DNA from: Lingula anatina
Lineage: Eukaryota > Animalia > Brachiopoda
Direction: 5' to 3'
DNA: 64,000 nt
NCBI GenBank assembly: GCA_051362555.1
Contig: CM120646.1
Span: 9,052,001 to 9,116,000 of the forward strand
The translations under genes were made by a program, and so were the position numbers. Shown here piece after piece: positions 1-43,089 of this stretch (its first letter is position 1; each line of letters opens with the position of its first letter). Below the pieces are notes generated by a model. It was not told where the DNA came from and made no database searches. It saw only the letters and a program-made list of their open reading frames with translations.

Positions 1-1606
1 ATATACCCATTTAAGACATCTCCTTACTACCAATACCAGATGCAGATTCCTCCTTACAATCGGTTTCTGGAATAGGGTTTACCACACCATTTGACAATGT
101 CCTAAAGCTTGCCATATACCATCTATTGTACACATGGATGAGACATAGCATTGCTCTTGCTGTTGTCTTTTGCTGTCTGTTTTTTCTATAGGAATTAGCC
201 CTGACCAGACAGGAAGAATCAGTTCACCAAAAAAGCCATCACGCTGTATGGAAAAGGTTACCTGGAAAAAGAACAATATGTTTGATAAAAGTGAAAATTA
301 AATTCTAAAAATTGACAAATTTCCCACACTAAAATAGATGAACAATAATTTTGATAAACGTAACCTAAACAGTTGACTATGACTAATAAAAAGGATATTT
401 TCAGAACATATAAATTTGAGAAATACTGAAACTGACATTGCAAAGACTGCCAAATGCGGTGCCTTAAAATAGTTAAATGTTAATAATTTTCACAAATCTT
501 GTCTAATATTTGTGAAATTTGGATAGATGATGCATAACAACAATAAAAATCTGTGATAAGCTCATCATTTGACTGTGTCTCATGAAAAACATTTTTCAGA
601 GCAAATATATGTGAGAAAACTGAAAATAAAACTGAAAAGACTGCCAAATTCCATGGTATAAAATAGTTAAACATTAATATTTTTCACAAATCTTCTCCAA
701 TATTTGTGGAATTGGGAGTGATGATGCTTAACAATAATAAAAACCTGTGATTAGCTCATCAGTTTACTGTGTTTCATGAAAAACATTTTTGAGAGCATAT
801 AAAAGTGAGAAAACTGAAAATGACATTGCAAAGACTGCAAAATTCCATGGCTTAAAATAGTTAAATGTTAATAATTTTCACAAATCTTGTCTAATATTTG
901 TGAAATTTGGATAGATGATGCATAACAACAATAAAAATCTGTGATAAGCTCATCAGTTGACTGTGTCTCATGAAAAACATTTTTCAGAGCAAATAAATGT
1001 GAGAAAACTGAAAATAAAACTGAAAAGACTGCCAAATTCCATGGTATAAAATAGTTAAACATTAATATTTTTCACAAATCTTGTCTAATATTTGTGGAAT
1101 TTGGAGAGATGATGCTTAACAATAATAAAAATCTGTGATTAGCTCATCAGTTTACTGTGTTTCATGAAAAACATTTTTGAGAGCATATAAACGTGAGAAA
1201 ACTGAAAATGACATTGCAAAGACTGCAAAATTCCATGGCTTAAAATAGTTAAACGTTAATAATTTTCACAAATCTTCAATAATAAAAATCTGTGATAAGC
1301 TCATCAGTTGACTGTGTCTCATTAAAAAGGTTTTTTTGGACAATAAATTTGAGAAAATTGAAAATGACACTGAGAAGACTGCAAAAGGCAGTGCCTTAAA
1401 ATAGTTAAACGTTAATAATTTTCACAAAACATGTTCAATATTTGTGAAATTTGGAGAGATGATGCTTAACAATATCAAAAATCTGTGATAAGTTTAACAG
1501 TTGACAGTGTGTGATAGAATTGTAGTTGTTTGACATATTGTATGCGAAGAGTGAGAATTATCTAAAATTTTTTTTTTTCAATTTCACAACATCTTATTAG
1601 ACTCAC

Positions 1607-1947
1607 ATTAAACATCAAATATTATGATTTGAGTTTGTTTGTGTAAGAGGTGACAAATTACCCATAATTTTCCTCTGGAAAAGAATATATACCCATTTAA
1701 GACATCTCCTTACTACCAATACCAGATGCAGATTCCTCCTTACAATCGGTTTCTGGAATAGGGTTTAGCACACCATTTGACAATGTCCTAAAGCTTGCCA
1801 TATACCATCTATTGTACACATGGATGAGACATAGCATTGTTCTTGCTGTTGTCTTTTGCTGTCTGTTTTTTCTATAGGAATTAGCCCTGACCAGACAGGA
1901 AGAATCAGTTCACCAAAAAAGCCATCACGCTGTATGGAAAAGGTCAC
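1607..1947 (-). other. Exon-like cassette repeated in every array unit (representative copy); gene fragment of unknown status
   Basis: On the minus strand: acceptor ttgttctttttccag|GTGACC (boundary 1948/1947), a 60-codon frame ending TAA at 1765, a second acceptor-like ttcttttccag|AGG (1675/1674), and donor-like G|gtaatt (1662/1661) and T|gtgagt (1607/1606). It is more GC-rich than the flanking monomers. Confidence 0.5.
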
Positions 1948-2069
1948 CTGGAAAAAGAACAACATGTTTGATAAAAGTGAAAACTAAATTCTAAAGATTG
2001 ACAAATTTCCCACACTAAAATAGTTGAACAATAATTTTGATAAACTTAACCTAAATAGTTGACTATGAC

Positions 2070-3820
2070 TAATAAAAAGGATATTTTCAGAACATATAAA
2101 TTTGAGAAATACTTAAAATGACATTGAAAAGACTGCCAAATGCGGTGCCTTAAAATAGTTAAATGTAAATAATTTTCACAAAACTTGTCCAATATTTGTG
2201 AAATTTGGACAGATGATGCATAACTATAATAAAAATCTATGATAAGCTCATCAGTTGAATATGTCTCATAAAAAATCTTTTTTTAGAGCATAAAAATGTG
2301 AGAAAACTGAAACTGACATTGCAAAGACTGTCAAATGCGGTGCCTTAAAATAGTTAAATGTTAATAATTTTCACAAATCTTGTCCAATATTTTTCAAATT
2401 TGGACAGATGATGCATAACAATAATAAAAGTCTGTGATAAGCTCATCAGTTGAATGTGTCTCATGAAAAGGAATTTTCAGAGCATATAAATGTGAAAAAA
2501 CTGAAACTGACATTGCAAAGACTGCAAAATTCCATGGCTTAAAATAGTTAAACGTTAATAATTTTTACAAATCTTGTCTAATATTTGTGAAATTTGGACA
2601 GATGATGCATAACAATAATAAAAATCTGTGATAAGCTCATCAGTTGACTGTGTCTCATTAAAAAGGGTTTTTTGGACAATAAAATTGAGAAAACTGAAAA
2701 TGACATTGAAAAGACTGTCAAATGCGGTGCCTTAAAATAGTTAAATGTTAATAATTTTCACAAATCTTGTCCAATATTTTTCAAATTTGGTCAGATGATG
2801 CATAACAATAATAAAAGTCTGTGATAAGCTCATCAGTTGAATGTGTCTCATGAAAAAGAATTTTCAGAGCATGTAAATGTGAAAAAACTGAAACTGACAT
2901 TGCAAAGACTGCCAAATGCGGTGCCTTAAAATAGTTAAATGTTAATAATTTTCACAAATCTTGTCTAATATTTGTGAAATTTGGATAGATGATGCATAAC
3001 AACAATAAAAATCTGTGATAAGCTCATCAGTTGACTGTGTCTCATGAAAAACATTTTTCAGAGCAAATAAATGTGAGAAAACTGAAAATAAAACTGAAAA
3101 GACTGCCAAATTCCATGGTATAAAATAGTTAAACATTAATATTTTTCACAAATCTTCTCCAATATTTGTGGAATTGGGAGTGATGATGCTTAACAATAAT
3201 AAAAATCTGTGATTAGCTCATCAGTTTACTGTGTTTCATGAAAAACATTTTTGAGAGCATATAAACGTGAGAAAACTGAAAATGACATTGCAAAGACTGC
3301 AAAATTCCATGGCTTAAAATAGTTAAATGTTAATAATTTTCACAAATCTTGTCTAATATTTGTGAAATTTGGATAGATGATGCATAACAACAATAAAAAT
3401 CTGTGATAAGCTCATCAGTTGACTGTGTCTCATGAAAAACATTTTTCTATTTGGACAATAAATTTGAGAAAACTGAAAATAACACTGAAACGACTGCCAA
3501 ATTCCATGGCTTAAAATAGTTAAACGTTAATAATTTTTACAAATCTTGTCTAATATTTATGAAATTTGGAAAGATGATGCATAACAATAATAAAAATCTG
3601 CGATAAGCTCATCAGTTGAATGTGTCTCATGAAAAAGAATTTTCAGAGCATATAAATGTGAAAAAACTGAAAATGACATTGAAAAGACTGCAAAATTCCA
3701 TGGCTTAGAATAGTTAAACGTTAATAATTTTCACAAAACATGTTCAATATTTGTGAAATTTGGAGAGATGATGCTTAACAATATCAAAAATCTGTGATAA
3801 GTTTAACAGTTGACAGTGTG
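2070..3820. repeat. Representative tract of the 194-bp AT-rich monomer (about 9 copies)
   Basis: The motif aaaatagttaaa(t/c)gttaataattttcacaaatc...tgataagctcatcagttga recurs every 194 bp. Two subtypes (..aaatgcggtgcc.. and ..aaattccatgg..) mostly alternate, giving a 388-bp dimer. Confidence 0.96.
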
Positions 3821-6800
3821 TGATAGAATTGTAGTTGTTTGACATATTGTATGCGAAGAGTGAGAATTATCTACAATATTTTTTTTTCAATTTCACAACA
3901 TCTAATTAGACTCACATTAAACATCAAATATTATGATTTGAGTTTGTTTGTGTAAGAGGTGACAAATTACCCATAATTTTCCTCTGGAAAAGAATATATA
4001 CCCATTTAAGACATCTCCTTACTACCAATACCAGATGCAGATTCCTCCTTTCAATCGGTTTCTGGAATTGAGGTTTAGCACACCATTTGACAATGTCCTA
4101 AAGCTTGCCATATACCATCTATTGCACACATGGATGAGACATAGCATTGCTCTTGCTGTTGTCTTTTGCTGTCTGTTTTTTCTATAGGAATTATCCCTGA
4201 CCAGACAGGAAGAATCAGTTCACCAAAAAAGCCATCACGCTGTATGGAAAAGGTCACCTGGAAAAAGAACAACATGTTTGATAAAAGTGAAAACTAAATT
4301 CTAAAAATTGACAAATTTCACACACTAAAATAGTTGAACAATAATTTTGATAAACATAACCTAAACAGTTGACTATGACTAATAAAAAGGATATTTTCAG
4401 AACATATAAAATTGAGAAATACTTAAAATGACATTGAAAAGACTGTCAAATGCGGTGCCTTAAAATAGTTAAATGTTAATAATTTTCACAAATCTTGTCC
4501 AATATTTTTCAAATTTGGACAGATGATGCATAACAATAATAAAAGTCTGTGATAAGCTCATCAGTTGAATGTGTCTCATGAAAAAGAATTTTCAGAGCAT
4601 ATAAATGTGAAAAAACTGAAACTGACATTGCAAAGACTGCAAAATTCCATGGCTTAAAATAGTTAAACGTTAATAATTTTTACAAATCTTGTCTAATATT
4701 TGTGAAATTTGGACAGATGATGCATAACAATAATAAAAATCTGTGATAAGCTCATCAGTTGACTGTGTCTCATTAAAAAGGGTTTTTTGGACAATAAAAT
4801 TGAGAAAACTGAAAATGACATTGAAAAGACTGTCAAATGCGGTGCCTTAAAATAGTTAAATGTTAATAATTTTCACAAATCTTGTCCAATATTTTTCAAA
4901 TTTGGACAGATGATGCATAACAATAATAAAAGTCTGTGATAAGCTCATCAGTTGAATGTGTCTCATGAAAAAGAATTTTCAGAGCATATAAATGTGAAAA
5001 AACTGAAACTGACATTGCAAAGACTGCAAAATTCCATGGCTTAAAATAGTTAAACGTTAATAATTTTTACAAATCTTGTCTAATATTTGTGAAATTTGGA
5101 CAGATGATGCATAACAATAATAAAAATCTGTGATAAGCTCATCAGTTGACTGTGTCTCATTAAAAAGGTTTTTTTGGACAATAAATTTGAGAAAATTGAA
5201 AATGACACTGAGAAGACTGCAAAAGGCGGTGCCTTAAAATAGTTAAACGTTAATAATTTTCACAAAACATGTTCAATATTTGTGAAATTTGGAGAGATGA
5301 TGTTTAACAATATCAAAAATCTGTGATAAGTTTAACAGTTGACAGTGTGTGATAGAATTGTAGTTGTTTGACATTTTGTATGCGAAGAGTGAGAATTATC
5401 TAAAATTTTTTTTTTTCAATTTCACAACATCTTATTAGACTCACATTAAACATCAAATATCATGATTTGAGTTTGTTTGTGTAAGAGGTGACAAATTACC
5501 CATAATTTTCCTCTGGAAAAGAATATATACCCATTTAAGACATCTCCTTACTACCAATACCAGATGCAGATTCCTCCTTACAATCGGTTTCTGGAATAGG
5601 GTTTAGCACACCATTTGACAATGTCCTAAAGCTTGCCATATACCATCTATTGTACACATGGATGAGACATAGCATTGTTCTTGCTGTTGTCTTTTGCTGT
5701 CTGTTTTTTCTATAGGAATTAGCCCTGACCAGACAGGAAGAATCAGTTCACCAAAAAAGCCATCACGCTGTATGGAAAAGGTCACCTGGAAAAAGAACAA
5801 CATGTTTGATAAAAGTGAAAACTAAATTCTAAAGATTGACAAATTTCCCACACTAAAATAGTTCAACAATAATTTTGATAAACTTAACCTAAATAGTTGA
5901 CTATGACTAATAAAAAGGATATTTTCAGAACATATAAAATTGAGAAATACTTAAAATGACATTGAAAAGACTGTCAAATGCGGTGCCTTAAAATAGTTAA
6001 ATGTTAATAATTTTCACAAATCTTGTCCAATATTTTTCAAATTTGGACAGATGATGCATAACAATAATAAAAGTCTGTGATAAGCTCATCAGTTGACTGT
6101 GTCTCATGAAAAACATTTTTCAGAGCAAATAAATGTGAGAAAACTGAAAATAAAACTGAAAAGACTGCCAAATTCCATGGTATAAAATAGTTAAACATTA
6201 ATATTTTTCACAAATCTTCTCCAATATTTGTGGAATTGGGAGTGATGATGCTTAACAATAATAAAAATCTGTGATTAGCTCATCAGTTTACTGTGTTTCA
6301 TGAAAAACATTTTTGAGAGCATATAAACGTGAGAAAACTGAAAATGACATTGCAAAGACTGCAAAGTTCCATGGCTTAAAATAGTTAAATGTTAATAATT
6401 TTCACAAATCTTGTCTAATATTTGTGAAATTTGGATAGATGATGCATAACAACAATAAAAATCTGTGATAAGCTCATCAGTTGACTGTGTCTCATGAAAA
6501 ACATTTTTCTATTTGGACAATAAATTTGAGAAAACTGAAAATAACACTGAAACGACTGCCAAATTCCATGGCTTAAAATAGTTAAACGTTAATAATTTTT
6601 ACAAATCTTGTCTAATATTTATGAAATTTGGACAGATGATGCAAAACAATAATAAAAATCTGCGATAAGCTCATCAGTTGAATGTGTCTCATGAAAAAGA
6701 ATTTTCAGAGCATATAAATGTGAAAAAACTGAAAATGACATTGAAAAGACTGCAAAATTCCATGGCTTAGAATAGTTAAACGTTAATAATTTTCACAAAA

Positions 6801-7699
6801 CATGTTCAATATTTGTGAAATTTGGAGAGATGATGCTTAACAATATCAAAAATCTGTGATAAGTTTAACAGTTGACAGTGTGTGATAGAATTGTAGTTGT
6901 TTGACATATTGTATGCGAAGAGTGAGAATTATCTACAATATTTTTTTTTCAATTTCACAACATCTAATTAGACTCACATTAAACATCAAATATTATGATT
7001 TGAGTTTGCTTGTGTAAGAGGTGACAAATTACCCATAATTTTCCTCTGGAAAAGAATATATACCCATTTAAGACATCTCCTTACTACCAATACCAGATGC
7101 AGATTCCTCCTTTCAATCGGTTTCTGGAATTGAGGTTTAGCACACCATTTGACAATGTCCTAAAGCTTGCCATATACCATCTATTGCACACATGGATGAG
7201 ACATAGCATTGCTCTTGCTGTTGTCTTTTGCTGTCTGTTTTTTCTATAGGAATTATCCCTGACCAGACAGGAAGAATCAGTTCACCAAAAAAGCCATCAC
7301 GCTGTATGGAAAAGGTCACCTGGAAAAAGAACAACATGTTTGATAAAAGTGAAAACTAAATTCTAAAAATTGACAAATTTCACACACTAAAATAGTTGAA
7401 CAATAATTTTGATAAACATAACCTAAACAGTTGACTATGACTAATAAAAAGGATATTTTCAGAACATATAAAATTGAGAAATACTTAAAATGACATTGAA
7501 AAGACTGTCAAATGCGGTGCCTTAAAATAGTTAAATGTTAATAATTTTCACAAATCTTGTCCAATATTTTTCAAATTTGGACAGATGATGCATAACAATA
7601 ATAAAAGTCTGTGATAAGCTCATCAGTTGAATGTGTCTCATGAAAAAGAATTTTCAGAGCATATAAATGTGAAAAAACTGAAACTGACATTGCAAAGAC

Positions 7700-10600
7700 T
7701 GCAAAATTCCATGGCTTAAAATAGTTAAACGTTAATAATTTTTACAAATCTTGTCTAATATTTGTGAAATTTGGACAGATGATGCATAACAATAATAAAA
7801 ATCTGTGATAAGCTCATCAGTTGACTGTGTCTCATTAAAAAGGGTTTTTTGGACAATAAAATTGAGAAAACTGAAAATGACATTGAAAAGACTGTCAAAT
7901 GCGGTGCCTTAAAATAGTTCAATGTTAATAATTTTCACAAATCTTGTCCAATATTATTTCAAATTTGGACAGATGATGCATAACAATAATAAAAGTCTGT
8001 GATAAGCTCATCAGTTGAATGTGTCTCATGAAAAAGAATTTTCAGAGCATATAAATGTGAAAAAACTGAAACTGACATTGCAAAGACTGCAAAATTCCAT
8101 GGCTTAAAATAGTTAAACGTTAATAATTTTTACAAATCTTGTCTAATATTTGTGAAATTTGGACAGATGATGCATAACAATAATAAAAATCTGTGATAAG
8201 CTCATCAGTTGACTGTGTCTCATTAAAAAGGTTTTTTTGGACAATAAATTTGAGAAAATTGAAAATGACACTGAGAAGACTGCAAAAGGCAGTGCCTTAA
8301 AATAGTTAAACGTTAATAATTTTCACAAAACATGTTCAATATTTGTGAAATTTGGAGAGATGATGCTTAACAATATCAAAAATCTGTGATAAGTTTAACA
8401 GTTGACAGTGTGTGATAGAATTGTAGTTGTTTGACATATTGTATGCGAAGAGTGAGAATTATCTACAATATTTTTTTTTCAATTTCACAACATCTAATTA
8501 GACTCACATTAAACATCAAATATTATGATTTGAGTTTGTTTGTGTAAGAGGTGACAAATTACCCATAATTTTCCTCTGGAAAAGAATATATACCCATTTA
8601 AGACATCTCCTTACTACCAATACCAGATGCAGATTCCTCCTTTCAATCGGTTTCTGGAATTGAGGTTTAGCACACCATTTGACAATGTCCTAAAGCTTGC
8701 CATATACCATCTATTGTACACAAGGATGAGACATAGCATTGCTCTTGCTGTTGTCTTTTGCTGTCTGTTTTTTCTATAGGAATTATCCCTGACCAGACAG
8801 GAAGAATCAGTTCACCAAAAAAGCCATCACGCTGTATGGAAAAGGTCACCTGGAAAAAGAACAACATGTTTGATAAAAGTGAAAACTAAATTCTAAAAAT
8901 TGACAAATTTCACACACTAAAATAGTTGAACAATAATTTTGATAAACTTAACCTAAACAGTTGACTATGACTAATAAAAAGGATATTTTCAGAACATATA
9001 AAATTGAGAAATACTTAAAATGAAATTGAAAAGACTGCCAAATGCGGTGCCTTAAAATAGTTAAATGTTAATAATTTTCACAAATCTTGTCCAATATTTG
9101 TGAAATTTGGACAGATGATGCATAACTATAATAAAAATCTATGATAAGCTCATCAGTTGAATGTGTCTCATGAAAAATCATTTTTTAGAGCATATAAATG
9201 TGAGAAAACTGAAACTGACATTGCAAAGACTGCAAAATTCCATGGCTTAAAATAGTTAAACGTTAATAATTTTCACAAATCTTGTCTAATATTTGTGAAA
9301 TTTGGATAGATGATGCATAACAACAATAAAAATCTGTGATAAGCTCAACAGTTGACTGTCTCATAAAAAATATTTTTTTGGACAATAAAATTGAGAAAAC
9401 TGAAAATGACATTGAAAAGACTGTCAAATGCGGTGCCTTAAAATAGTTAAATGTTAATAATTTTCACAAATCTTGTCCAATATTTTTCAAATTTGGACAG
9501 ATGATGCATAACAATAATAAAAGTCTGTGATAAGCTCATCAGTTGAATGTGTCTCATGAAAAAGAATTTTCAGAGCATATAAATGTGAAAAAACTGAAAC
9601 TGACATTGCAAAGACTGCAAAATTCCATGGCTTAAAATAGTTAAACGTTAATAATTTTTACAAATCTTGTCTAATATTTGTGAAATTTGGACAGATGATG
9701 CATAACAATAATAAAAATCTGTGATAAGCTCATCAGTTGACTGTGTCTCATTAAAAAGGTTTTTTTGGACAATAAATTTGAGAAAATTGAAAATGACACT
9801 GAGAAGACTGCAAAAGGCAGTGCCTTAAAATAGTTAAACGTTAATAATTTTCACAAAACATGTTCAATATTTGTGAAATTTGGAGAGATGATGCTTAACA
9901 ATATCAAAAATCTGTGATAAGTTTAACAGTTGACAGTGTGTGATAGAATTGTAGTTGTTTGACATTTTGTATGCGAAGAGTGAGAATTATCTAAAATTTT
10001 TTTTTTTCAATTTCATAACATCTTATTAGACTCACATTAAACATCAAATATCATGATTTGAGTTTGTTTGTGTAAGAGGTGACAAATTACCCATAATTTT
10101 CCTCTGGAAAAGAATATATACCCATTTAAGACATCTCCTTACTACCAATACCAGATGCAGATTCCTCCTTACAATCGGTTTCTGGAATAGGGTTTAGCAC
10201 ACCATTTGACAATGTCCTAAAGCTTGCCATATACCATCTATTGTACACATGGATGAGACATAGCATTGTTCTTGCTGTTGTCTTTTGCTGTCTGTTTTTT
10301 CTATAGGAATTAGCCCTGACCAGACAGGAAGAATTAGTTCACCAAAAAAGCCATCACGCTGTATGGAAAAGGTCACCTGGAAAAAGAACAACATGTTTGA
10401 TAAAAGTGAAAACTAAATTCTAAAGATTGACAAATTTCCCACACTAAAATAGTTGAACAATAATTTTGATAAACTTAACCTAAATAGTTGACTATGACTA
10501 ATAAAAAGGATATTTTCAGAACATATAAATTTGAAAAATACTTAAAATGACATTGAAAAGACTGCCAAATGCAGTGCCTTAAAATAGTTAAATGTAAATA

Positions 10601-13600
10601 ATTTTCACAAAACTTGTCCAATATTTGTGAAATTTGGACAGATGATGCATAACTATAATAAAAATCTATGATAAGCTCATCAGTTGAATATGTCTCATAA
10701 AAAATCTTTTTTTAGAGCATAAAAATGTGAGAAAACTGAAACTGACATTGCAAAGACTGTCAAATGCGGTGCCTTAAAATAGTTAAATGTTAATAATTTT
10801 CACAAATCTTGTCCAATATTTTTCAAATTTGGACAGATGATGCATAACAATAATAAAAGTCTGTGATAAGCTCATCAGTTGAATGTGTCTCATGAAAAAG
10901 AATTTTCAGAGCATATAAATGTGAAAAAACTGAAACTGACATTGCAAAGACTGCAAAATTCCATGGCTTAAAATAGTTAAACGTTAATAATTTTTACAAA
11001 TCTTGTCTAATATTTGTGAAATTTGGACAGATGATGCATAACAATAATAAAAATCTGTGATAAGCTCATCAGTTGACTGTGTCTCATTAAAAAGGGTTTT
11101 TTGGACAATAAAATTGAGAAAACTGAAAATGACATTGAAAAGACTGTCAAATGCGGTGCCTTAAAATAGTTAAATGTTAATAATTTTCACAAATCTTGTC
11201 TAATATTTGTGAAATTTGGATAGATGATGCATAACAACAATAAAAATCTGTGATAAGCTCATCAGTTGACTGAGTCTCATGAAAAACATTTTTCAGAGCA
11301 AATAAATGTGAGAAAACTGAAAATAAAACTGAAAAGACTGCCAAATTCCATGGTATAAAATAGTTAAACATTAATATTTTTCACAAATCTTCTCCAATAT
11401 TTGTGGAATTGGGAGTGATGATGCTTAACAATAATAAAAATCTGTGATTAGCTCATCAGTTTACTGTGTTTCATGAAAAACATTTTTGAGAGCATATAAA
11501 CGTGAGAAAACTGAAAATGACATTGCAAAGACTGCAAAATTCCATGGCTTAAAATAGTTAAATGTTAATAATTTTCACAAATCTTGTCTAATATTTGTGA
11601 AATTTGGATAGATGATGCATAACAACAATAAAAATCTGTGATAAGCTCATCAGTTGACTGTGTCTCATGAAAAACATTTTTCTATTTGGACAATAAATTT
11701 GAGAAAACTGAAAATAACACTGAAACGACTGCCAAATTCCATGGCTTAAAATAGTTAAACGTTAATAATTTTTACAAATCTTGTCTAATATTTATGAAAT
11801 TTGGACAGATGATGCAAAACAATAATAAAAATCTACGATAAGCTCATCAGTTGAATGTGTCTCATGAAAAAGAATTTTCAGAGCATATAAATGTGAAAAA
11901 ACTGAAAATGACATTGAAAAGACTGCAAAATTCCATGGCTTAGAATAGTTAAACGTTAATAATTTTCACAAAACATGTTCAATATTTGTGAAATTTGGAG
12001 AGATGATGCTTAACAATATCAAAAATCTGTGATAAGTTTAACAGTTGACAGTGTGTGATAGAATTGTAGTTGTTTGACATATTGTATGCGAAGAGTGAGA
12101 ATTATCTACAATATTTTTTTTTCAATTTCACAACATCTAATTAGACTCACATTAAACATCAAATATTATGATTTGAGTTTGTTTGTGTAAGAGGTGACAA
12201 ATTACCCATAATTTTCCTCTGGAAAAGAATATATACCCATTTAAGACATCTCCTTACTACCAATACCAGATGCAGATTCCTCCTTTCAATCGGTTTCTGG
12301 AATTGAGGTTTAGCACACCATTTGACAATGTCCTAAAGCTTGCCATATACCATCTATTGCACACATGGATGAGACATAGCATTGCTCTTGCTGTTGTCTT
12401 TTGCTGTCTGTTTTTTCTATAGGAATTATCCCTGACCAGACAGGAAGAATCAGTTCACCAAAAAAGCCATCACGCTGTATGGAAAAGGTCACCTGGAAAA
12501 AGAACAACGTTTGATAAAAGTGAAAACTAAATTCTAAAAATTGACAAATTTCCCACACTAAAATAGTTGAACAATAATTTTGATAAACTTAACCTAAACA
12601 GTTGACTATGACTAATAAAAAGGATATTTTCAGAACATATAAAATTGAGAAATACTTAAAATGAAATTGAAAAGACTGCCAAATGCGGTGCCTTAAAATA
12701 GTTAAATGTTAATAATTTTCACAAATCTTGTCCAATATTTGTGAAATTTGGACAGATGATGCATAACTATAATAAAAATCTATGATAAGCTCATCAGTTG
12801 AATGTGTCTCATGAAAAATCTTTTTTTAGAGCATATAAATGTGAGAAAACTGAAACTGACATTGCAAAGACTGCAAAATTCCATGGCTTAAAATAGTTAA
12901 ACGTTAATAATTTTCACAAATCTTGTCTAATATTTGTGAAATTTGGATAGATGATGCATAACAACAATAAAAATCTGTGATAAGCTCAACAGTTGACTGT
13001 CTCATAAAAAATATTTTTTTGGACAATAAAATTGAGAAAACTGAAAATGACATTGAAAAGACTGTCAAATGCGGTGCCTTAAAATAGTTAAATGTTAATA
13101 ATTTTCACAAATCTTGTCTAATATTTGTGAAATTTGGATAGATGATGCATAACAACAATAAAAATCTGTGATAAGCTCATCAGTTGACTGTGTCTCATGA
13201 AAAACATTTTTCTATTTGGACAATAAATTTGAGAAAACTGAAAATAACACTGAAACGACTGCCAAATTCCATGGCTTAAAATAGTTAAACGTTAATAATT
13301 TTTACAAATCTTGTCTAATATTTATGAAATTTGGACAAATGATGCAAAACAATAATAAAAATCTACGATAAGCTCATCAGTTGAATGTGTCTCATGAAAA
13401 AGAATTTTCAGAGCATATAAATGTGAAAAAACTGAAAATGACATTGAAAAGACTGCAAAATTCCATGGCTTAGAATAGTTAAACGTTAATAATTTTCACA
13501 AAACATGTTCAATATTTGTGAAATTTGGAGAGATGATGCTTAACAATATCAAAAATCTGTGATAAGTTTAACAGTTGACAGTGTGTGATAGAATTGTAGT

Positions 13601-31500: not shown

Positions 31501-33550
31501 TAAAATAGTTGAACAATAATTTTGATAAACTTAACCTAAATAGTTGACTATGACTAATAAAAAGGATATTTTCAGAACATATAAATTTGAGAAATACTTA
31601 AAATGACATTGAAAAGACTGCCAAATGCGGTGCCTTAAAATAGTTAAATGTAAATAATTTTCACAAATCTTGTCCAATATTTGTGAAATTTGGACAGATG
31701 ATGCATAACTATAATAAAAATCTATGATAAGCTCATCAGTTGAATATGTCTCATAAAAAATCTTTTTTTAGAGCATAAAAATGTGAGAAAACTGAAACTG
31801 ACATTGCAAAGACTGTCAAATGCGGTGCCTTAAAATAGTTAAATGTTAATAATTTTCACAAATCTTGTCCAATATTTTTCAAATTTGGACAGATGATGCA
31901 TAACAATAATAAAAGTCTGTGAAAAGCTCATCAGTTGAATGTGTCTCATGAAAAGGAATTTTCAGAGCATATAAATGTGAAAAAACTGAAACTGACATTG
32001 CAAAGACTGCAAAATTCCATGGCTTAAAATAGTTAAACGTTAATAATTTTTACAAATCTTGTCTAATATTTGTGAAATTTGGACAGATGATGCATAACAA
32101 TAATAAAAATCTGTGATAAGCTCATCAGTTGACTGTGTCTCATTAAAAAGGGTTTTTTGGACAATAAAATTGAGAAAACTGAAAATGACATTGAAAAGAC
32201 TGTCAAATGCGGTGCCTTAAAATAGTTAAATGTTAATAATTTTCACAAATCTTGTCCAATATTTTTCAAATTTGGTCAGATGATGCATAACAATAATAAA
32301 AATCTGTGATAAGCTCATCAGTTGAATGTGTCTCATGAAAAAGAATTTTCAGAGCATGTAAATGTGAAAAAACTGAAACTGACATTGCAAAGACTGCCAA
32401 ATGCGGTGCCTTAAAATAGTTAAATGTTAATAATTTTCACAAATCTTGTCTAATATTTATGAAATTTGGATAGATGATGCATAACAACAATAAAAATCTG
32501 TGATAAGCTCATCAGTTGACTGTGTCTCATGAAAAACATTTTTCAGAGCAAATAAATGTGAGAAAACTGAAAATAAAACTGAAAAGACTGCCAAATTCCA
32601 TGGTATAAAATAGTTAAACATTAATATTTTTCACAAATCTTCTCCAATATTTGTGGAATTGGGAGTGATGATGCTTAACAATAATAAAAATCTGTGATTA
32701 GCTCATCAGTTTACTGTTTCATGAAAAACATTTTTGAGAGCATATAAACGTGAGAAAACTGAAAATGACATTGCAAAGACTGCAAAATTCCATGGCTTAA
32801 AATAGTTAAATGTTAATAATTTTCACAAATCTTGTCTAATATTTGTGAAATTTGGATAGATGATGCATAACAACAATAAAAATCTGTGATAAGCTCATCA
32901 GTTGACTGTGTCTCATGAAAAACATTTTTCTATTTGGACAATAAATTTGAGAAAACTGAAAATAACACTGAAACGACTGCCAAATTCCATGGCTTAAAAT
33001 AGTTAAACGTTAATAATTTTTACAAATCTTGTCTAATATTTATGAAATTTGGACAGATGATGCAAAACAATAATAAAAATCTGCAATAAGCTCATCAGTT
33101 GAATGTGTCTCATGAAAAAGAATTTTCAGAGCATATAAATGTGAAAAAACTGAAAATGACATTGAAAAGACTGCAAAATTCCATGGCTTAGAATAGTTAA
33201 ACGTTAATAATTTTCACAAAACATGTTCAATATTTGTGAAATTTGGAGAGATGATGCTTAACAATATCAAAAATCTGTGATAAGTTTAACAGTTGACAGT
33301 GTGTGATAGAATTGTAGTTGTTTGACATATTGTATGCGAAGAGTGAGAATTATCTACAATATTTTTTTTTCAATTTCACAACATCTAATTAGACTCACAT
33401 TAAACATCAAATATTATGATTTGAGTTTGTTTGTGTAAGAGGTGACAAATTACCCATAATTTTCCTCTGGAAAAGAATATATACCCATTTAAGACATCTC
33501 CTTACTACCAATACCAGATGCAGATTCCTCCTTTCAATCGGTTTCTGGAA
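23200..33550. repeat. About 3.45-kb higher-order repeat (1140 + 2310 bp unit pair), about three copies
   Basis: Anchors 23212/26663/30110/33558 and 24353/27803/31250 are spaced 3447-3451 bp. Confidence 0.88.
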
Positions 33551-36500
33551 TTGAGGTTTAGCACACCATTTGACAATGTCCTAAAGCTTGCCATATACCA
33601 TCTATTGCACACATGGATGAGACATAGCATTGCTCTTGCTGTTGTCTTTTGCTGTCTGTTTTTTCTATAGGAATTATCCCTGACCAGACAGGAAGAATCA
33701 GTTCACCAAAAAAGCCATCACGCTGTATGGAAAAGGTCACCTGGAAAAAGAACATGTTTGATAAAAGTGAAAACTAAATTCTAAAAATTGACAAATTTCA
33801 CACACTAAAATAGTTGAACAATAATTTTGATAAACATAACCTAAACAGTTGACTATGACTAATAAAAAGGATATTTTCAGAACATATAAAATTGAGAAAT
33901 ACTTAAAATGACATTGAAAAGACTGTCAAATGCGGTGCCTTAAAATAGTTAAATGTTAATAATTTTCACAAATCTTGTCCAATATTTTTCAAATTTGGAC
34001 AGATGATGCATAACAATAATAAAAGTCTGTGATAAGCTCATCAGTTGAATGTGTCTCATGAAAAAGAATTTTCAGAGCATATAAATGTGAAAAAACTGAA
34101 ACTGACATTGCAAAGACTGCAAAATTCCATGGCTTAAAATAGTTAAACGTTAATAATTTTTACAAATCTTGTCTAATATTTGTGAAATTTGGACAGATGA
34201 TGCATAACAATAATAAAAATCTGTGATAAGCTCATCAGTTGACTGTGTCTCATTAAAAAGGGTTTTTTGGACAATAAAATTGAGAAAACTGAAAATGACA
34301 TTGAAAAGACTGTCAAATGCGGTGCCTTAAAATAGTTAAATGTTAATAATTTTCACAAATCTTGTCCAATATTTTTCAAATTTGGACAGATGATGCATAA
34401 CAATAATAAAAGTCTGTGATAAGCTCATCAGTTGAATGTGTCTCATGAAAAAGAATTTTCAGAGCATATAAATGTGAAAAAACTGAAACTGACATTGCAA
34501 AGACTGCAAAATTCCATGGCTTAAAATAGTTAAACGTTAATAATTTTTACAAATCTTGTCTAATATTTGTGAAATTTGGACAGATGATGCATAACAATAA
34601 TAAAAATCTGTGATAAGCTCATCAGTTGACTGTGTCTCATTAAAAAGGTTTTTTTGGACAATAAATTTGAGAAAATTGAAAATGACACTGAGAAGACTGC
34701 AAAAGGCGGTGCCTTAAAATAGTTAAACGTTAATAATTTTCACAAAACATGTTCAATATTTGTGAAATTTGGAGAGATGATGCTTAACAATATCAAAAAT
34801 CTGTGATAAGTTTAACAGTTGACAGTGTGTGATAGAATTGTAGTTGTTTGACATTTTGTATGCGAAGAGTGAGAATTATCTAAAAATTTTTTTTTTCAAT
34901 TTCACAACATCTTATTAGACTCACATTAAACATCAAAAATCATGATTTGAGTTTGTTTGTGTAAGAGGTGACAAATTACCCATAATTTTCCTCTGGAAAA
35001 GAATATATACCCATTTAAGACATCTCCTTACTACCAATACCAGATGCAGATTCCTCCTTACAATCGGTTTCTGGAATAGGGTTTAGCACACCATTTGACA
35101 ATGTCCTAAAGCTTGCCATATACCATCTATTGTACACATGGATGAGACATAGCATTGTTCTTGCTGTTGTCTTTTGCTGTCTGTTTTTTCTATAGCAATT
35201 AGCCCTGACCAGACAGGAAGAATCAGTTCACCAAAAAAGCCATCACGCTGTATGGAAAAGGTCACCTGGAAAAAGAACAACATGTTTGATAAAAGTGAAA
35301 ACTAAATTCTAAAGATTGACAAATTTCCCACACTAAAATAGTTGAACAATAATTTTGATAAACTTAACCTAAATAGTTGACTGTGACTAATAAAAAGGAT
35401 ATTTTCAGAACATATAAATTTGAGAAATACTTAAAATGACATTGAAAAGACTGCCAAATGCGGTGCCTTAAAATAGTTAAATGTTAATAATTTTCACAAA
35501 TCTTGTCCAATATTTGTGAAATTTGGACATATGATGCATAACTATAATAAAAATCTATGATAAGCTCATCAGTTGAATGTGTCTCATGAAAAATCTTTTT
35601 TTAGAGCATATAAATGTGAGAAAACTGAAACTGACATTGCAAAGACTGCAAAATTCCATGGCTTAAAATAGTTAAACGTTAATAATTTTCACAAATCTTG
35701 TCTAATATTTGTGAAATTTGGATAGATGAAGCATAACAACAATAAAAATCTGTGATAAGCTCATCAGTTGACTGTGTCTCATTAAAAATATTTTTTTGGA
35801 CAATAAATTTGAGAAAATTGAAAATGGAAAAGAATATATACCCATTTAAGACATCTCCTTACTACCAATACCAGATGCAGATTCTTCCTTACAATCGGTT
35901 TCTGGAATAGGGTTTAGCACACCATTTGACAATGTCCTAAAGCTTGACATATGCCATCTATTGTACACATGGATGAGACATAGCATTGCTCTTGCTATTG
36001 CCTTTCGCTGTCTGTTTTTTCTATAGGAATTAGCCCTGACCAGACAGGAAGAATCAGTTCACCAAAAAAGCCATCATGCTGTATGAAAAAGGTCACCTGG
36101 AAAAAGAACAATATGTTTGATAAAAGTGAAAATTAAATTCTAAAAATTAATAAATTTCCCACACTAAAATAGTTGAACAATAATTTTGATAAACTTAACC
36201 TAAACAGTTGACTATGTCAAATAAAAAGGATATTTTCAGAACATATAAATTTGAGAAATACTGAAAATGACATTGAAAAGACTGCCAAATGCGGTGCCTT
36301 AAAATAGTTATATGTTAATAATTTTCACAAATCTTGTCCAATATTTGTGAAATTTGGACACATGATGCATAACAATAATAAAAATCTGTGATAAGCTCAT
36401 CAGTTGACTGTCTCATGAAAAACATTTTTCAGAGCAAATAAATGTGAGAAAACTGAAAATGACACTGAAAAGACTGCCAAATTCCATGGTATAAAATAGT

Positions 36501-39500
36501 TAAACGTTAATAATTTTCACAAATCTTGTCTAATATTTGTGAAATTTGGATAGATGAAGCATAACAACAATAAACATCTGTGATAAGCTCATTAGTTGAA
36601 TGTGTCTCATGAAAAAGTTTTTTTTGGACAATAAAATTGAGAAAACTGAAAATGACATTGAAAAGACTGCCAAATGCGGTGCCTTAAAATAGTTAAACAT
36701 TAATAATTATCACAAATCTTGTTCAATATTTGTGAAATTTGGACAGATGATGCATAACAATAATAAAAATCTGTGATAAGCTCATCAGTTGACTGTGTCT
36801 TATGAAAAACATTTTTCAGAGATAATAAATGTGAGCTAACTGAAAATGACATTGCAAAGACTGCAAAATTCCATGGCTTAAAATAGTTAATCGTTAATAA
36901 TTTTCACAAATCCTGTCTAATATTTGTGAAATTTGGATAGATGATGCATAACAACAATAAAAATCTGTGATAAGCTCATCAGTTGACTGTGTCTCATTAA
37001 AAAGATTTTTTTGGACAATAAATTTGAGAAAATTGAAAATGGAAAAGAATATATACCCATTTAAGACATCTCCTTACTACCAATACCAGATGCAGATTCT
37101 TCCTTACAATCGGTTTCTGGAATAGGGTTTAGCACACCATTTGACAATGTCCTAAAGCTTGACATATGCCATCTATTGTACACATGGATGAGACATAGCA
37201 TTGCTCTTGCTATTGCCTTTCGCTGTCTGTTTTTTCTATAGGAATTAGCCCTGACCAGACAGGAAGAATCAGTTCACCAAAAAAGCCATCATGCTGTATG
37301 AAAAAGGTCACCTGGAAAAAGAACAATATGTTTGATAAAAGTGAAAATTAAATTCTAAAAATTAATAAATTTCCCACACTAAAATAGTTGAACAATAATT
37401 TTGATAAACTTAATCTAAACAGTTGACTATGTCAAATAAAAAGGATATTTTCAGAACATATAAATTTGAGAAATACTGAAAATGACATTGAAAAGACTGC
37501 CAAATGCGGTGCCTTAAAATAGTTATATGTTAATAATTTTCACAAATCTTGTCCAATATTTGTGAAATTTGGACACATGATGCATAACAATAATAAAAAT
37601 CTGTGATAAGCTCATCAGTTGACTGTGTCTCATGAAAAACATTTTTCAGAGCAAATAAATGTGAGAAAACTGAAAATGACACTGAAAAGACTGCCAAATT
37701 CCATGGTATAAAATAGTTAAACGTTAATAATTTTCACAAATCTTGTCTAATATTTGTGAAATTTGGATAGATGAAGCATAACAACAATAAACATCTGTGA
37801 TAAGCTGATCAGTTGAATGTGTCTCATGAAAAAGATTTTTTTTTTGGACAATAAATTTGAGAAAACTGAAAATGACACTGAAGCGACTGCTAAATTCCAT
37901 GACTTAAAATAGTTAAACGTTAATAATTTTCACAAATCTTGTCCAATATTTGTGGAATTTGGAGAGATGAAGCATAACAACAATAAAAATCTGTGATAAG
38001 CTCATCAGTTGACTGTGTCTCATAAAAAAGTTTTATTTGGACAATAAAATTGAGAAAACTGAAAATGACATTGAAAAGACTGCAAAATGCGGTGCCTTAA
38101 AATAGTTAAACGTTAATAATTTTCACAAATCTTGTCCAATATTTGTGAAATTTGGACAGATGATGCATAACAACAATAAAAATCTGTGATAAGCTCATCA
38201 GTTGACTGTGTCTCATGAAAAAGAATTTTCAGAGCATATAAATGTGAGAAAACTGAAAATGACACTGAAAAGACTGCCAAATTCCATGGTATAAAATAGT
38301 TAAACGTTAATAATTTTAACAAATCTTGTCTAATATTTGTGAAATTTGGATAGATGAAGCATAACAATAATAAAAATCTGTGATAAGCTCATCAGTTGAC
38401 TGTGTCTCATGAAAAAGATTTTTTTTTTTTGGACAATGAATTTGAGAAAACTGAAAATGACACTGAAACGACTGCTAAATTCCATGGCTTAAAATAGTTT
38501 AACGTTAATCATTTTTACAAATCTCGTCTAATTTCTGTGAAATGTGGATAGATGATGCATAACAACAATAAAAATCTGTGATAAGCTCATTAGTTGAATG
38601 TGTCTCATGAAAAAGTTTTTTTTGGACAATAAAATTGAGAAAACTGAAAATGACATTGAAAAGACTGCAAAATGCGGTGCCTTAAAATAGTTAAACATTA
38701 ATAATTATCACAAATCTTGTTCAATATTTGTGAAATTTGGACAGATGATGCATAACAATAATATAAATCTGTGATAAGCTCATCAGTTGACTGTGTCCCA
38801 TTGAAAAGATTTTTTTGGACAATAAATTTGAGAAAATTGAAAATGACACTGAGAAGACTGCAAAAGGCGGTGCCTTAAAATAGTTAAATGTTAATAATTT
38901 TCACAAAACTTGTTCAATATTTGTGAAATTTGGACAGATGATGCTTAACAATAACAAAAATCTGTGATAAGCTTTACAGTTGACAGAGTGTGATAGAATT
39001 GTAGTTGTTTGACATTTTATATGCGAAGAGTGAGAATTATCTACAATATTTTTTTTTCAACTTCACATCTAATTAGACTCACATTAAACATCAAATATTA
39101 TGATTTGAGTTTGTTTGTGTAAGAGGTGACAATTTACCCATAATTTTCCTCTGGAAAAGAATATATACCCATTTAAGACATCTCCATACTACCAATACCA
39201 GATGCAGATTCCTCCTTACAATCGGTTTCTGGAATAGGGTTTAGCACACCATTTGACAATGTCCTAAAGCTTGCCATATACCATCTATTGTACACATGGG
39301 TGCGACATAGCATTGCTCTTGCTGCTGTCTTTTGCTGTCTGTTTTTTCTATAGGAATTAGCCCTGACCAGACAGGAAGAATCAGTTCACCAAAAAAGCCA
39401 TCACGCTGTATGGAAAAGGTCACCTGGAAAAAGAACAATATGTTTGATAAAAGTGAAAATTAAATTCTAAAAATTAATAAATTTCCCATACTAAAATATT

Positions 39501-42226
39501 TGAACAATAATTTTGATAAACTTAACCTAAACAGTTGACTATGTCTAATAAAAAGGATATTTTCAGAACATATAAATTTGAGAAATACTGAAAATGACAT
39601 TGAAAAGACTGCCAAATGCAGTGCCTTAAAATAGTTAAATGTTAATAATTTTCACAAATCTTGTCCAAAATTTGTGAAATTTGGACAGTTGATGCATAAC
39701 AATAATAAAAATCTGTGATTAGTTCATCAGTCGACTGTGTCTCATGAAAAACATTTTTCAGAGCAAATAAATGTGAGAAAACTGAAAATGACACTGAAAA
39801 GACTGCCAAATTCCATGGTATAAAATAGTTAAACGTTAATAATTTTAACAAATCTTGTCTAATATCTGTGAAATGTGGATAGATGATGCATAACAACAAT
39901 AAAAATCTGTGATAAGCTCATTAGTTGAATGTGTCTCATGAAAAAGTTTTTTTTGGACAATAAAATTGAGAAAACTGAAAATGACATTGAAAAGACTGCA
40001 AAATGCGGTGCCTTAAAATAGTTAAACATTAATAATTATTACAAATCTTGTTCAATATTTGTGAAATTTGGACAGATGATGCATAACAATAATAAAAATC
40101 TGTGATAAGCTCATCAATTGACTGTGTCTCATTAAAAAGATTTTTTTGGACAATAAATTTGAGAAAATTGAAAATGACACTGAGAAGACTGCAAAAGGCG
40201 GTGCCTTAAAATAGTTAAACATTAATAATTTTCACAAAACTTGTTCAAAATTTGTGAAATTTGGACAGTTGATGCATAACAATAATATAAATCTGTGATA
40301 AGCTCATCAGTAGACTGTGTCTCATGAAAAACATTTTTCAGAGCAAATAAATGTGAGAAAACTGAAAATGACATTGCAAAGACTGCAAAATTCCATGGCT
40401 TAAAATAGTTAATCGTTAATAATTTTCACAAATCTTGTCTATGAAATGTGGATAGATGATGCATAACAACAATAAAAATCTGTGATAAGCTCATCAGTTG
40501 ACTGTGTCTCATTAAAAAGATTTTTTTGGACAATAAATTTGAGAAAATTGAAAATGACACTGAGAAGACTGCAAAAGGCGGTGCCTTAAAATAGTTAAAC
40601 GTTAATAATTTTCACAAAACTTGTTCAATATTTGTGAAATTTGGAGAGATGATGCTTAACAATAACAATAATCTGTGATAAGTTTAACAGTTGACAGTGT
40701 GTGACAGAATTGTAGTTGTTTGACATTTTGTATGCGAAGAGTGAGAATTATCTACAATATTTTTTTTTCAATCTCACAACATCTAATTAGACTCACATTA
40801 AACATCAAATATTATGATTTGAGTTTGTTTGTGTAAGAGGTGACAATTTACCCGTAATTTTTCTCTGGAAAAGAATATATACCCATTTAAGACATCTCCT
40901 TACTACCAATACCAGATGCAGATTCCTCCTTACAATCGGTTTCTGGAATTGAGGTTTAGCACACCATTTGACAATGTCCTAAAACTTGCCATATACCATC
41001 TATTGTACACATGGATGAGACATAGCATTGCTCTTGCTGTCGTCTTTTGCTGTCTGCTTTTTCTATAGGAATTAGCCCTGACCAGACAGGAAGAATCAGT
41101 TCACCAAAAAAGCCATCACGCTGTATTGAAAAGGTCACCTGGAAATAGGACAATGTTTGATAAAAGTGAAAATTAAATTCTAAAAATTGACAAATTTCCC
41201 ACACTAAAATAGTTGAACAATAATTTTGATAAACTTAACCTAAACGGTTGACAATGTCTAATAAAAAGGATATTTTCAGAACATATAAATTTGAGAAAAA
41301 CTGAAAATGACATTGAAAAGACTGCCAAATGCGGTGCCTTAAAATAGTTAAACGTTAATAATTTTCACAAAACTTGTTCAATATTTGTGAAATTTGGAGA
41401 GATGATGCTTAACAATAACAAAAATCTGTGATAAGCTTTACAGTTGACAGTGTGAGAAAGAATTGTAGTTGTTTGACATATTGTATGCGAAGAGTGAGAA
41501 TTATCTACAATATTTTTTTTTTCAATTTCACAACATCTAATTAGATTCACATTAAACATCAAATATTATGATTTGAGTTTGTTTGTGTAAGAGGTGACAA
41601 TTTACCCGTAATTTTCCTCTGGAAAAGAATATATACCCATTTAAGACATCTCCTTACTACCAATACCAGATGCAGATTCCTCCTTACAATTTGTGTTTGG
41701 AATTGGGGTTTAGCACACCATTTGACAATGTTTTAAAGCTTGCCTACCATCTATTGTACACATGGATGAGACATAGCATTGCTCTTGCTGTTGTCTTTTG
41801 CTGTCTGTTTTTTCTATAAGAATTAGCCATGACCAGACAGGAAGAATCAGTTCACCAAAAAAGCCCCCACACTGTATGGAAAAGGTCACCTGGAAGAGAA
41901 ATGTACAATGTATTTAAAAAAAAAAATGGAAATTAAATTTTAAAAAGTGATAAATTTATCAGACTAAAATAGCTAAACATTAATAATTTTGATAAAGTTG
42001 GATTTAAAAGTGGATTGTGTGTAATGGAAAGGCTCATCTGGAAAAAGAACAGTAAGTTTGAAAAAAAGTGAAAATATCGCCAGTTTTCGAGATGTAAGGG
42101 ATAGAAAATTTGCAAAGCTCAGTTCATGGTGAAAATAAGTTCAAGGGTCAATTTCAGGATCACAGTTAGATTGGCAGTATATGACATCCTATTCAAGTTC
42201 AATGAGGGTAAGAAATACTCCCCCTT

Positions 42227-42312
42227 AATCACCAATCACGAAGAATTAAAACAGGTCAATCACCAATCAAGAAGATATATTCAGGTCAATCACCAATCAC
42301 CAGGAATTAAAA
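42227..42312 (+). repeat. Three ~30-bp tandem copies, each containing CCAAT
   Basis: aatcaccaatca occurs three times; CCAAT starts at 42232, 42263 and 42293. Confidence 0.8.
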
Positions 42313-42639
42313 GCTATCGCCATTCATCAAGATAGAAAATTGCTATACTTGCAGGAATGCAAAGAATTCATAACATTCCCAGAATAATTAATTTCATATG
42401 TTGAATGACATGAATCGTCTGTTTAGAGATATTCAGCCATTCTTATTGGTCAGGATTCCCGTAACAGAGACTAAGGCGATGATATACGAATAGAACAGGA
42501 AAGTAGCAAACTACTCACATTTCCACTTTTCTACCTGCCTTGTTTGAAGAGTTTGTTGAATTTATCTCCAGTGAATGATTGCCCTACAATCATGATACAA
42601 AGTTGGGACTTTCTAGAACAAATTTCTCTAATGCTAATT

Positions 42640-42790
42640 AAACATTTTTACGAATCACGTTGATGAATTCATACCAATTAATAACGCGGAACAAAGAAGT
42701 TCCTGAATCACGTTTCACGCAGAATATTGGGCTCCAATAATGTACCACGCTCGAAAAATAAGGTCAGTCACGTGTAACGCAAAAGGTATT
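42640..42790. promoter_or_regulatory. Small CpG-enriched patch with promoter-like motifs
   Basis: Local CpG enrichment in otherwise CpG-poor DNA; inverted CCAAT pair tattgg-gct-ccaata (42725-42739); E-box gtcacgtg (42767-42774); aatcacgtt twice. Confidence 0.3.
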
Positions 42791-43089
42791 AATTATGGGT
42801 GTATCTTTGACAGTTTTGGAGACATGAAGATTGGAAAACTTGCAAAGTGCAGTTCATAATGAAAAGTAGGTCAAAGGTCAATTTTAAGGTCACAGTTAGA
42901 TTACCAGTATATGACTTCCTTAGTTCGATAGTAACTATGGGCATATCTCTGCTAATTTTGGAATAATTCACATTTCATTTTCACCACTGAATATTGCAAC
43001 ATTGTATTTTTTTATATAGTGCAATGAAAAAACCACGTCGATAACAAAAAAAAAAGGACACCTCCAGTATTTCATTTGACAAGTTCTAC

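What the first reader, a model, noticed from the sequence alone, without database searches (positions are those of the whole stretch)
1..41900. Array of 27 splice-competent exon-like cassettes: possible bank of alternative terminal exons or a multi-exon repeat lncRNA
Seen: every unit carries, on the minus strand, a pyrimidine-tract/CAG acceptor immediately followed by a ~60-codon frame ending in TAA. The frame is open in 25 of 27 copies. The most divergent copy (41710-41889) has an in-frame 3-nt deletion, while the 1-3 nt indels seen near the acceptor (gaacaacgt, gaacatgt) fall on the intron side. Copies differ by single residues (GLI/GII, MCT/MCA/LCT, SS/AP, ELI/ELM, LIP/LIA, VC/VW). Inference: this is an amplified exon with minisatellite-inflated introns, which could be used either as selectable last exons giving variant small Cys-containing peptides or as a repetitive spliced non-coding RNA. 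Low divergence means frame retention alone is weak evidence.
Basis: partly seen in the sequence, partly recalled or inferred. Interest (0 to 1): 0.78.

Follow-up and report, generated by a model that had tools for sequence, protein, structure and literature searches.

The report
Satellite array with a cryptic exon
A recently expanded tandem repeat, likely in a lamp-shell (Lingula) genome, holds 27 copies of an exon-like piece whose splice site is used in a few RNA reads, but the copies show no sign of selection and lack end-of-transcript signals, so it is likely a repeat that is occasionally spliced rather than a bank of swappable last exons.

Summary
Observation confirmed. There are 27 copies of a ~570-bp cassette between runs of a 194-bp satellite. 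Each has a minus-strand CAG acceptor and a 60-codon frame, open in 25 of 27.

The acceptor is real. In one RNA run a loose end of 3 reads stops exactly at it; its consensus matches a GTAAGT donor exon at 48889 (27 of 30 letters), in frame.

The rest of the reading fails:
- The frame shows no constraint (7 synonymous, 22 missense, 1 stop).
- The minus strand has one AATAAA in 41.9 kb.
- Reads leave the cassette at GT donors past the stop.
- No cassette-to-cassette joint was listed.
- Only 4 of 78 laid RNA reads were at least 99% alike; 22 of 27 listed variant letters occur in no copy.

The cassette belongs to a larger repeat family. A Lingula RefSeq model uses a paralog at the same acceptor in another phase. 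Best reading: a young macrosatellite of a weakly exonized repeat inside a likely intron. Caveat: the RNA animals may be a diverged lineage lacking this array.

The parts
1..41999 (.). Higher-order tandem array (macrosatellite): 27 cassettes of ~570 bp alternating with 1-9 monomers of a 194-bp satellite; runs off the left end of the window; contains 6.7-kb and 3.45-kb block duplications
41661..41889 (-). First and most divergent cassette copy, from acceptor (CAG at 41892-41890) to the position matching the GT donor seen in RNA; 60-codon-type frame 41889-41710; nearest to the upstream donor and the likeliest splice target if the reads come from this locus (inferred)
   Evidence: shares the ancestral Trp21 allele with RNA reads and the RefSeq paralog
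1717..1947 (-). Representative bulk cassette exon: acceptor 1948|1947, TAA at 1767-1765, GT donors at 1717|1716 and 1714|1713 (231 or 234 nt in this copy type)
   Evidence: RNA loose ends at 1948, 1717 and 1713; splice contexts
1846..1877 (+). Second, plus-strand pyrimidine tract and AG acceptor (1877|1878) inside the cassette, used by 5 opposite-strand reads from a diverged family member
   Evidence: loose end before 1876, agreement 1.0; partner not in window
1955..2047 (+). Intron side of the acceptor: a decayed monomer of the 194-bp satellite
   Evidence: nhmmer E 5e-5; local alignment z 9.3 against shuffles
2057..3819 (.). Example run of nine 194-bp satellite monomers with an internal 17-bp hairpin
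48889..49300 (-). Upstream exon (5' end not mapped) with GTAAGT donor at 48889|48888; ATG at 48960 gives 24 codons in phase with the cassette frame; CpG-rich zone
41890..48888 (-). Inferred 7.0-kb intron between the donor and the first cassette, filled with repeat remnants; CpG-depleted

Best explanation
The array is a young macrosatellite built from a repeat module that carries working splice sites; it likely lies in an intron of a minus-strand transcription unit that starts near 49 kb, where the cassette would now and then be spliced in as a stop-containing internal exon with no protein function. Shown: the tandem and block-duplicated structure; the lack of coding constraint; the satellite origin of the acceptor's intron side; splicing at the acceptor and at downstream GT donors in family members; use of a paralog in a RefSeq model in another phase. 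Inferred: expansion by unequal crossing-over from a copy like the one at 41889; a promoter near 49 kb and a methylated gene body below 48.5 kb; nonsense-mediated decay of cassette-containing RNAs; and that the spliced reads reflect this locus or its orthologue.
For: (1) Bulk copies are 98.8% identical in the frame, with 6701-bp and ~3450-bp repeated blocks. (2) Distinct variants in the frame: 7 synonymous, 22 missense, 1 nonsense; neutral expectation 21-26% synonymous (P 0.50-0.78). Variant density is 0.13-0.16 per base in the frame against 0.09-0.11 downstream. (3) One AATAAA and no ATTAAA in 41.9 kb of minus strand. (4) 4 of the 11 RNA loose-end rows shown sit at canonical splice signals: minus acceptor, two minus GT donors, one plus acceptor. 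In X17, first-mate-plus depth drops from 7.8 to 0 across the acceptor. (5) DNA run X2 lays 705 contigs on 581 bp, single contigs up to depth 4231, and holds 15 of the 22 non-array letters: a family larger or more varied than this array. (6) The only alignable hit among 1.84 billion representatives is Lingula LOC106159107. It enters at the same acceptor in phase 1 behind an unrelated integrase-SAM-like piece and shifts frame after about 10 codons. (7) CpG o/e is 0.27 in the array, 0.14 at 45.7-48.5 kb and 0.89 at 48.5-49.5 kb.
Against: The junction to 48889 is phase 0, and an ATG 24 codons upstream in a good context opens an 84-codon frame; chance gives the right phase one time in three. The junction rests on a 3-read loose end with agreement 0.74 (probably 2 reads), and its letters differ from the window at 3 of 30 places, so it may come from a paralog. 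No downstream exon or host gene was found; the tested partners are not in the window. The selection test has only 30 variants and low power. Indels are fewer in the frame (1 in 183 nt against 8 in about 414 nt of flank; hand binomial about 0.18). Low CpG could equally reflect methylation of a repeat. L. anatina may be a species complex (PMC8146825, passages), so the RNA animals may lack this young array.
Confidence: 0.6

Rival explanations
1. A real small gene (lncRNA or 84-codon micro-protein gene) uses the upstream exon and one cassette, most likely the first copy at 41889, as exon 2; the 26 downstream copies are a passenger expansion.
For: Canonical GTAAGT donor, phase-0 join and upstream ATG. 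CpG step at 48.5 kb. RNA reads share the ancestral Trp21 allele with the first copy. A stop at codon 61 is seen in three RNA loose-end consensuses from diverged members.
Against: The 3 differences in the upstream loose end are all missense in that frame (read). No gene model or relative was found for the peptide or for the 28-residue upstream piece. Only 2-3 junction reads in 12.4 million records.
Confidence: 0.18
2. All spliced reads come from paralogous loci that carry both a similar upstream exon and a cassette; this array itself is silent satellite DNA.
For: Only 3, 1 and 0 reads were at least 99% alike. 22 of 27 listed letters are absent from the array. The loose end differs at 3 of 30 letters. 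X23 and X24 have zero depth at 1495-1614 and 1955-2075, summed over all copies.
Against: The donor and acceptor are both intact here, in the right order and strand. Low minus-strand-class depth lies on the flank at 42244-42600 in X17 and X22. A diverged lineage would explain the mismatches equally well.
Confidence: 0.11
3. A repeat-rich multi-exon lncRNA strings cassettes together by donor-to-next-acceptor splicing along the array.
For: Each unit has both an acceptor and GT donors that family members use; poly(A) signals are scarce on that strand.
Against: Such splices would show as 'goes back' joints on the single-unit reference; no joint was listed in 3 RNA runs. The exits at 1717 and 1713 lead into unrelated sequence.
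Confidence: 0.06
4. One reading: one upstream exon picks any of 25 intact copies as last exon, giving variant Cys-containing peptides.
For: In-phase junction from the upstream donor; frame open in 25 of 27.
Against: No per-copy poly(A) signal. No constraint and no excess diversification: 10 translations, two of which cover 17 of 27 copies. The Ile22 allele (12 copies) and Ala45 allele (10 copies) were not listed in RNA, although X17 had about 12 reads over the first site. The paralog is frameshifted.
Confidence: 0.05

Closest known systems
Repeat exonization, e.g. primate Alu exons (PMC3629564, PMC5115870; search listing and start of abstract only)
   Same: A multi-copy repeat carries cryptic splice sites and is taken into transcripts at low level at unrelated loci, in different phases, often with premature stops.
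   Different: Here the exonizable module is itself tandemly amplified 27 times or more in one place; it is no known retroposon; acceptors on both strands are used.
Human macrosatellites D4Z4/DUX4, RS447, TAF11-like, PRR20, SST1 (PMC3018141, passages)
   Same: Kilobase-scale tandem units, nearly identical, each holding an open frame. SST1 has frames with no known protein match.
   Different: D4Z4, RS447, TAF11-like and PRR20 units hold a whole ORF or gene. Here a unit holds only an acceptor-led fragment with no start codon, and unit length varies with the satellite count.
Duplicated exons and satellite-filled introns of Drosophila Y genes such as kl-2 (PMC8794474, passages)
   Same: Extra exon copies amid tandem repeats, mostly weakly expressed, of unclear effect.
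   Different: Those are copies of exons of conserved protein genes; this cassette has no relative outside Lingula.
Oyster Cg_HINE non-autonomous Helentrons carrying satellite-like central repeats (PMC7492417, passages)
   Same: Short runs of 140-200-bp satellite-like monomers between constant flanking modules; whole elements can repeat in tandem.
   Different: No microsatellite, subterminal inverted repeat pair or 3' palindrome was found in the cassette, so it is not filed as a HINE.

Membership tests
Array of alternative terminal exons | A shared upstream exon splices to the cassette acceptor | tested here: met
   3-read loose end at 1948 matches 48890-48919 beside a GTAAGT donor; thin, and possibly from a paralog
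Array of alternative terminal exons | Each copy is followed by its own poly(A) signal and ends the transcript | tested here: not met
   1 AATAAA and 0 ATTAAA on 41.9 kb of minus strand; reads exit at GT donors after the stop
Array of alternative terminal exons | Several copies are used | tested here: inconclusive
   4 of 78 reads at least 99% alike; copy-diagnostic alleles not listed; the animals may lack the array
Array of alternative terminal exons | Coding constraint on the exon frame | tested here: not met
   7 synonymous of 30 variants against 21-26% expected; paralog frameshifted
Macrosatellite / higher-order tandem repeat | Head-to-tail kilobase-scale units of high identity with block duplications | tested here: met
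   Units of 751-2310 bp, 98.8% identity in 22 bulk copies, 6.7-kb and 3.45-kb blocks
Macrosatellite / higher-order tandem repeat | Copy number varies between individuals | not testable with these tools
   Contig depth is no copy number; X2 differs in allele make-up, e.g. 1670G in 85% of depth and in 0 of 27 copies
Exonized repeat (Alu-exon-like) | Repeat family present at other loci and spliced behind unrelated exons | tested here: met
   RefSeq LOC106159107; mixed loose-end partners and non-array alleles
Exonized repeat (Alu-exon-like) | Low inclusion compared with the exon-skipping isoform, with nonsense-mediated decay | not tested
   The upstream exon was not covered by either read lay, so the skipping isoform was not measured
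HINE (non-autonomous Helentron) | Subterminal inverted repeats, microsatellite and 3' palindrome flanking the central repeats | tested here: not met
   None found in one unit; definition from PMC7492417
HINE (non-autonomous Helentron) | Short central array of satellite-like monomers | tested here: met
   1-9 monomers of 194 bp per unit

The most novel reading that the evidence does not exclude
A gene being born: a CpG-rich first exon with an ATG has captured a repeat-derived exon in frame, making an orphan 84-residue protein, and satellite-driven unequal crossing-over has just multiplied that exon 27 times or more. This would be a Dscam- or protocadherin-like variable-exon bank caught before its copies have diversified.
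Probability: 0.07. Interest if true: 0.72.

Novelty: new member of a known kind. Interest (0 to 1): 0.24.

Why it matters
As read here it is a modest case. It shows how a satellite can carry and multiply a working splice acceptor, and it warns that exon-like cassettes with open frames in young arrays need not be functional. If matched RNA showed several copies in use, the locus would be a rare snapshot of a variable-exon array before diversification, in a genome where earlier unchecked notes of this scan report several mature ones.

Tried and rejected
- No whole genome is held, so family size and the left end of the array are unknown.
- Pfam: nothing at the gathering cut-off for 7 window frames, 6 upstream frames or the 70-codon phase-1 frame. 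A sushi-like or FN3-like look that I recalled from memory was not supported.
- Rfam on 38900-64000: 0 matches.
- Word-based protein search with the 60-mer: none at 33-105 aa; none at 106-2000 aa (weak evidence, since it also missed the paralog). The paralog's own end found only itself.
- 4 of the 5 phmmer hits (P0001, P0003, P0004, P0005) are repetitive proteins scoring by summed weak stretches; rejected.
- ESM Atlas: no usable hit for the phase-1 frame. PDB: none for the 28-residue upstream piece. Metagenome contigs: 224 pattern matches, none confirmed.
- No RNA holder was listed in the run index; this is no evidence either way. Four of the 8 listed RNA runs were laid and three (five different runs); only 6-26% of each run was read.
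- In one search the joint and loose-end tables were swamped by a neighbouring highly expressed repeat, so cassette joints could not be seen there.
- Three other loose ends are absent from the window.
- The exon part is unrelated to neighbouring repeats (z under 2).
- Earlier findings: none near, none by sequence, none by words.
- Paper searches for Lingula satellite DNA, invertebrate satellite exonization and tandem arrays of alternative last exons in satellite listed no description of this element. The supplements and repeat library of the Lingula genome paper were not read and may list the family.
Full report
Observation. The window opens inside a tandem array that ends at about 42.0 kb. A ~570-bp cassette occurs 27 times, separated by 1-9 monomers of a 194-bp satellite, about 138 in all. 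On the minus strand 26 copies read CAG|GTGACC and one reads CAG|GTAACC. A 60-codon frame follows and is open in 25 of 27; the two exceptions (36097, 37312) share a TAG and are also truncated. The 22 bulk copies are 98.8% identical in the frame, fall into two alternating types, and repeat in blocks of 6701 bp and about 3450 bp. The five right-hand copies are more divergent, the last (41889) most of all. This is the pattern expected of unequal crossing-over (inference).

Is the frame under selection? I counted distinct variant alleles against the majority. The frame has 7 synonymous, 22 missense and 1 nonsense change, against 21-26% synonymous expected by chance (P 0.50-0.78). Variant density in the frame (0.13-0.16 per base) is not below that downstream (0.09-0.11). 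About half of neutral simulations give at most one stop, and 47% of shuffled cassettes hold a stop-free run of 60 codons or more. Overlapping frames of 70 codons (minus, phase 1) and 73-74 codons (plus) are longer. Indels are rarer in the frame (1 in 183 nt against 8 in about 414 nt after dropping alignment-edge events and the misaligned tails of the truncated copies), but not significantly (hand binomial about 0.18). The test is allele-based and has low power. The intron side of the acceptor is a decayed satellite monomer (E 5e-5; z 9.3).

RNA. No run holding the stretch was on record as RNA, which is no evidence. Raw RNA runs under the same species label were laid instead. On a single bulk cassette at 93% likeness, X17, X23 and X24 gave 30, 29 and 19 reads from 12.4, 11.1 and 10.7 million records. 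Of these 3, 1 and 0 were at least 99% alike and 15, 13 and 0 were 95-99% alike; no joint was listed. Of 27 variant letters listed, 22 occur in none of the 27 copies; 15 of those 22 occur in contigs of DNA run X2. The two alleles that mark the commonest copy type (12 and 10 copies) were not listed. X23 had depth 1.6-7.7 on the flank at 42315-42598 but zero at 1495-1614 and 1955-2075 summed over all copies, so the array interior is not read in proportion to its copy number; the flank's uniqueness is unverified. Most cassette RNA therefore comes from diverged family members, or from animals diverged from the assembly.

Splicing is nevertheless real. Four of the 11 RNA loose-end rows shown (10 more rows were not shown) fall on canonical signals. 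In X17 three reads stop at 1948, the acceptor. Their consensus (agreement 0.74, probably two agreeing reads) matches window 48890-48919 at 27 of 30 letters, with no match in 100 shuffles. That stretch lies directly beside a GTAAGT donor at 48889|48888 on the minus strand. First-mate-plus depth falls from 7.8 to 0 across the acceptor. Other reads leave the cassette at GT donors 1717|1716 (5 reads, X17) and 1714|1713 (4 reads, X23), 48-51 nt past the TAA, into mixed sequences that are not in the window. Five opposite-strand reads use a plus-strand acceptor at 1877|1878 (partner not in the window). So the cassette behaves as an internal, stop-containing exon with splice sites on both strands. No single read spans both ends. 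The minus strand has one AATAAA and no ATTAAA in 41.9 kb. With only about 760 bp of independent sequence this is not statistically striking, but terminal exons would need such signals.

Relatives. Pfam, Rfam, PDB, the ESM Atlas and word-based searches gave nothing. phmmer over 1.84 billion representatives gave five hits; four are repetitive artefacts, and one (67% identity over 36 residues) is Lingula anatina RefSeq LOC106159107. That model enters a cassette paralog at the same acceptor in phase 1 and switches into our frame after about ten codons. Its upstream part resembles integrase SAM-like domains and clusters with reverse-transcriptase proteins (sub-threshold; my reading as a DIRS-type retroelement piece is recalled, not tested). 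The acceptor is thus used elsewhere behind an unrelated exon, and the frame is not kept across the family. DNA run X2 lays 705 contigs on the 581-bp cassette, single ones at depth up to 4231. Summed depth is no copy number, but the family is clearly abundant. The organism is likely Lingula (also earlier scan notes). L. anatina may be a species complex (PMC8146825, passages), which is the main caveat on the RNA negatives. The genome paper's main text has no occurrence of 'satellite' or 'Helitron' (PMC13121700, passages; supplements not read).

Context. CpG o/e steps from 0.89 at 48.5-49.5 kb to 0.14 at 45.7-48.5 kb and 0.27 in the array. In many invertebrates methylation lies in gene bodies but also in repeats (PMC8330077, passages). 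The step fits a promoter near 49 kb transcribing leftwards but does not prove it. The host unit's later exons were not found and would lie beyond the window's left edge.

Mechanism. Most likely (0.6), a repeat module with cryptic splice sites sat 7 kb downstream of a minus-strand first exon, next to satellite monomers, and was amplified with them into a macrosatellite. The spliceosome occasionally takes a cassette as an internal exon carrying a stop, a likely decay target.

Comparison and verdict. It works like repeat exonization (Alu exons; PMC3629564 and PMC5115870, listing and abstract start only) inside a macrosatellite (PMC3018141, passages), and resembles the duplicated, weakly expressed exons in satellite-rich Drosophila Y genes (PMC8794474, passages). 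It fails two defining tests for an alternative terminal-exon array and lacks the terminal features of HINE elements (PMC7492417, passages). I found no description of this element in searches. New member of a known kind; interest 0.24. The boldest reading not excluded, a nascent in-frame orphan gene whose second exon has just been multiplied, has probability about 0.07.

Noticed in passing
window 42079-42203 and 42835-42920: Remnants of a ~146-bp tandem repeat whose relatives are very abundant in RNA: depth 1400-3300 in the 6% of each stranded run that was read, 92-99% on one strand, with head-to-tail joints. Near-fixed letter differences show the RNA comes from another locus; possibly a highly expressed repeat-rich non-coding RNA or UTR.
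   Followed up: no
window 42024-42074: A 28th, decayed acceptor-side fragment (84% over 51 bp) just upstream of the first cassette, with an intact pyrimidine tract and CAG but no exon body.
   Followed up: partly
window 45724-46744 (+): Broken frames that look like the C-terminal part of a hAT-type transposase (motif recalled from memory); Pfam did not confirm it.
   Followed up: partly
window 55148-55414: Near-perfect long palindrome: nested arms of 60 and 67 nt at 93-96% complementarity with a 13-nt loop; likely a fold-back element or MITE.
   Followed up: no
window 44719-45290 and 56570-57013: Two elements with a HINE/pearl-like layout seen in the sequence: 160-bp tandem units or an (ACAA)n microsatellite followed by a short palindrome. 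Family label recalled, not tested.
   Followed up: no
window 1561-1847 (table 5c): Two X17 reads skip 285 nt inside the cassette, between a GC-donor-like and an AG-acceptor-like site, with one extra letter; below the listing threshold, either a splice or a genomic deletion in a paralog.
   Followed up: no
window 50040-50302: 75-bp inverted repeat pair at 93% identity, MITE-like, upstream of the inferred first exon.
   Followed up: no
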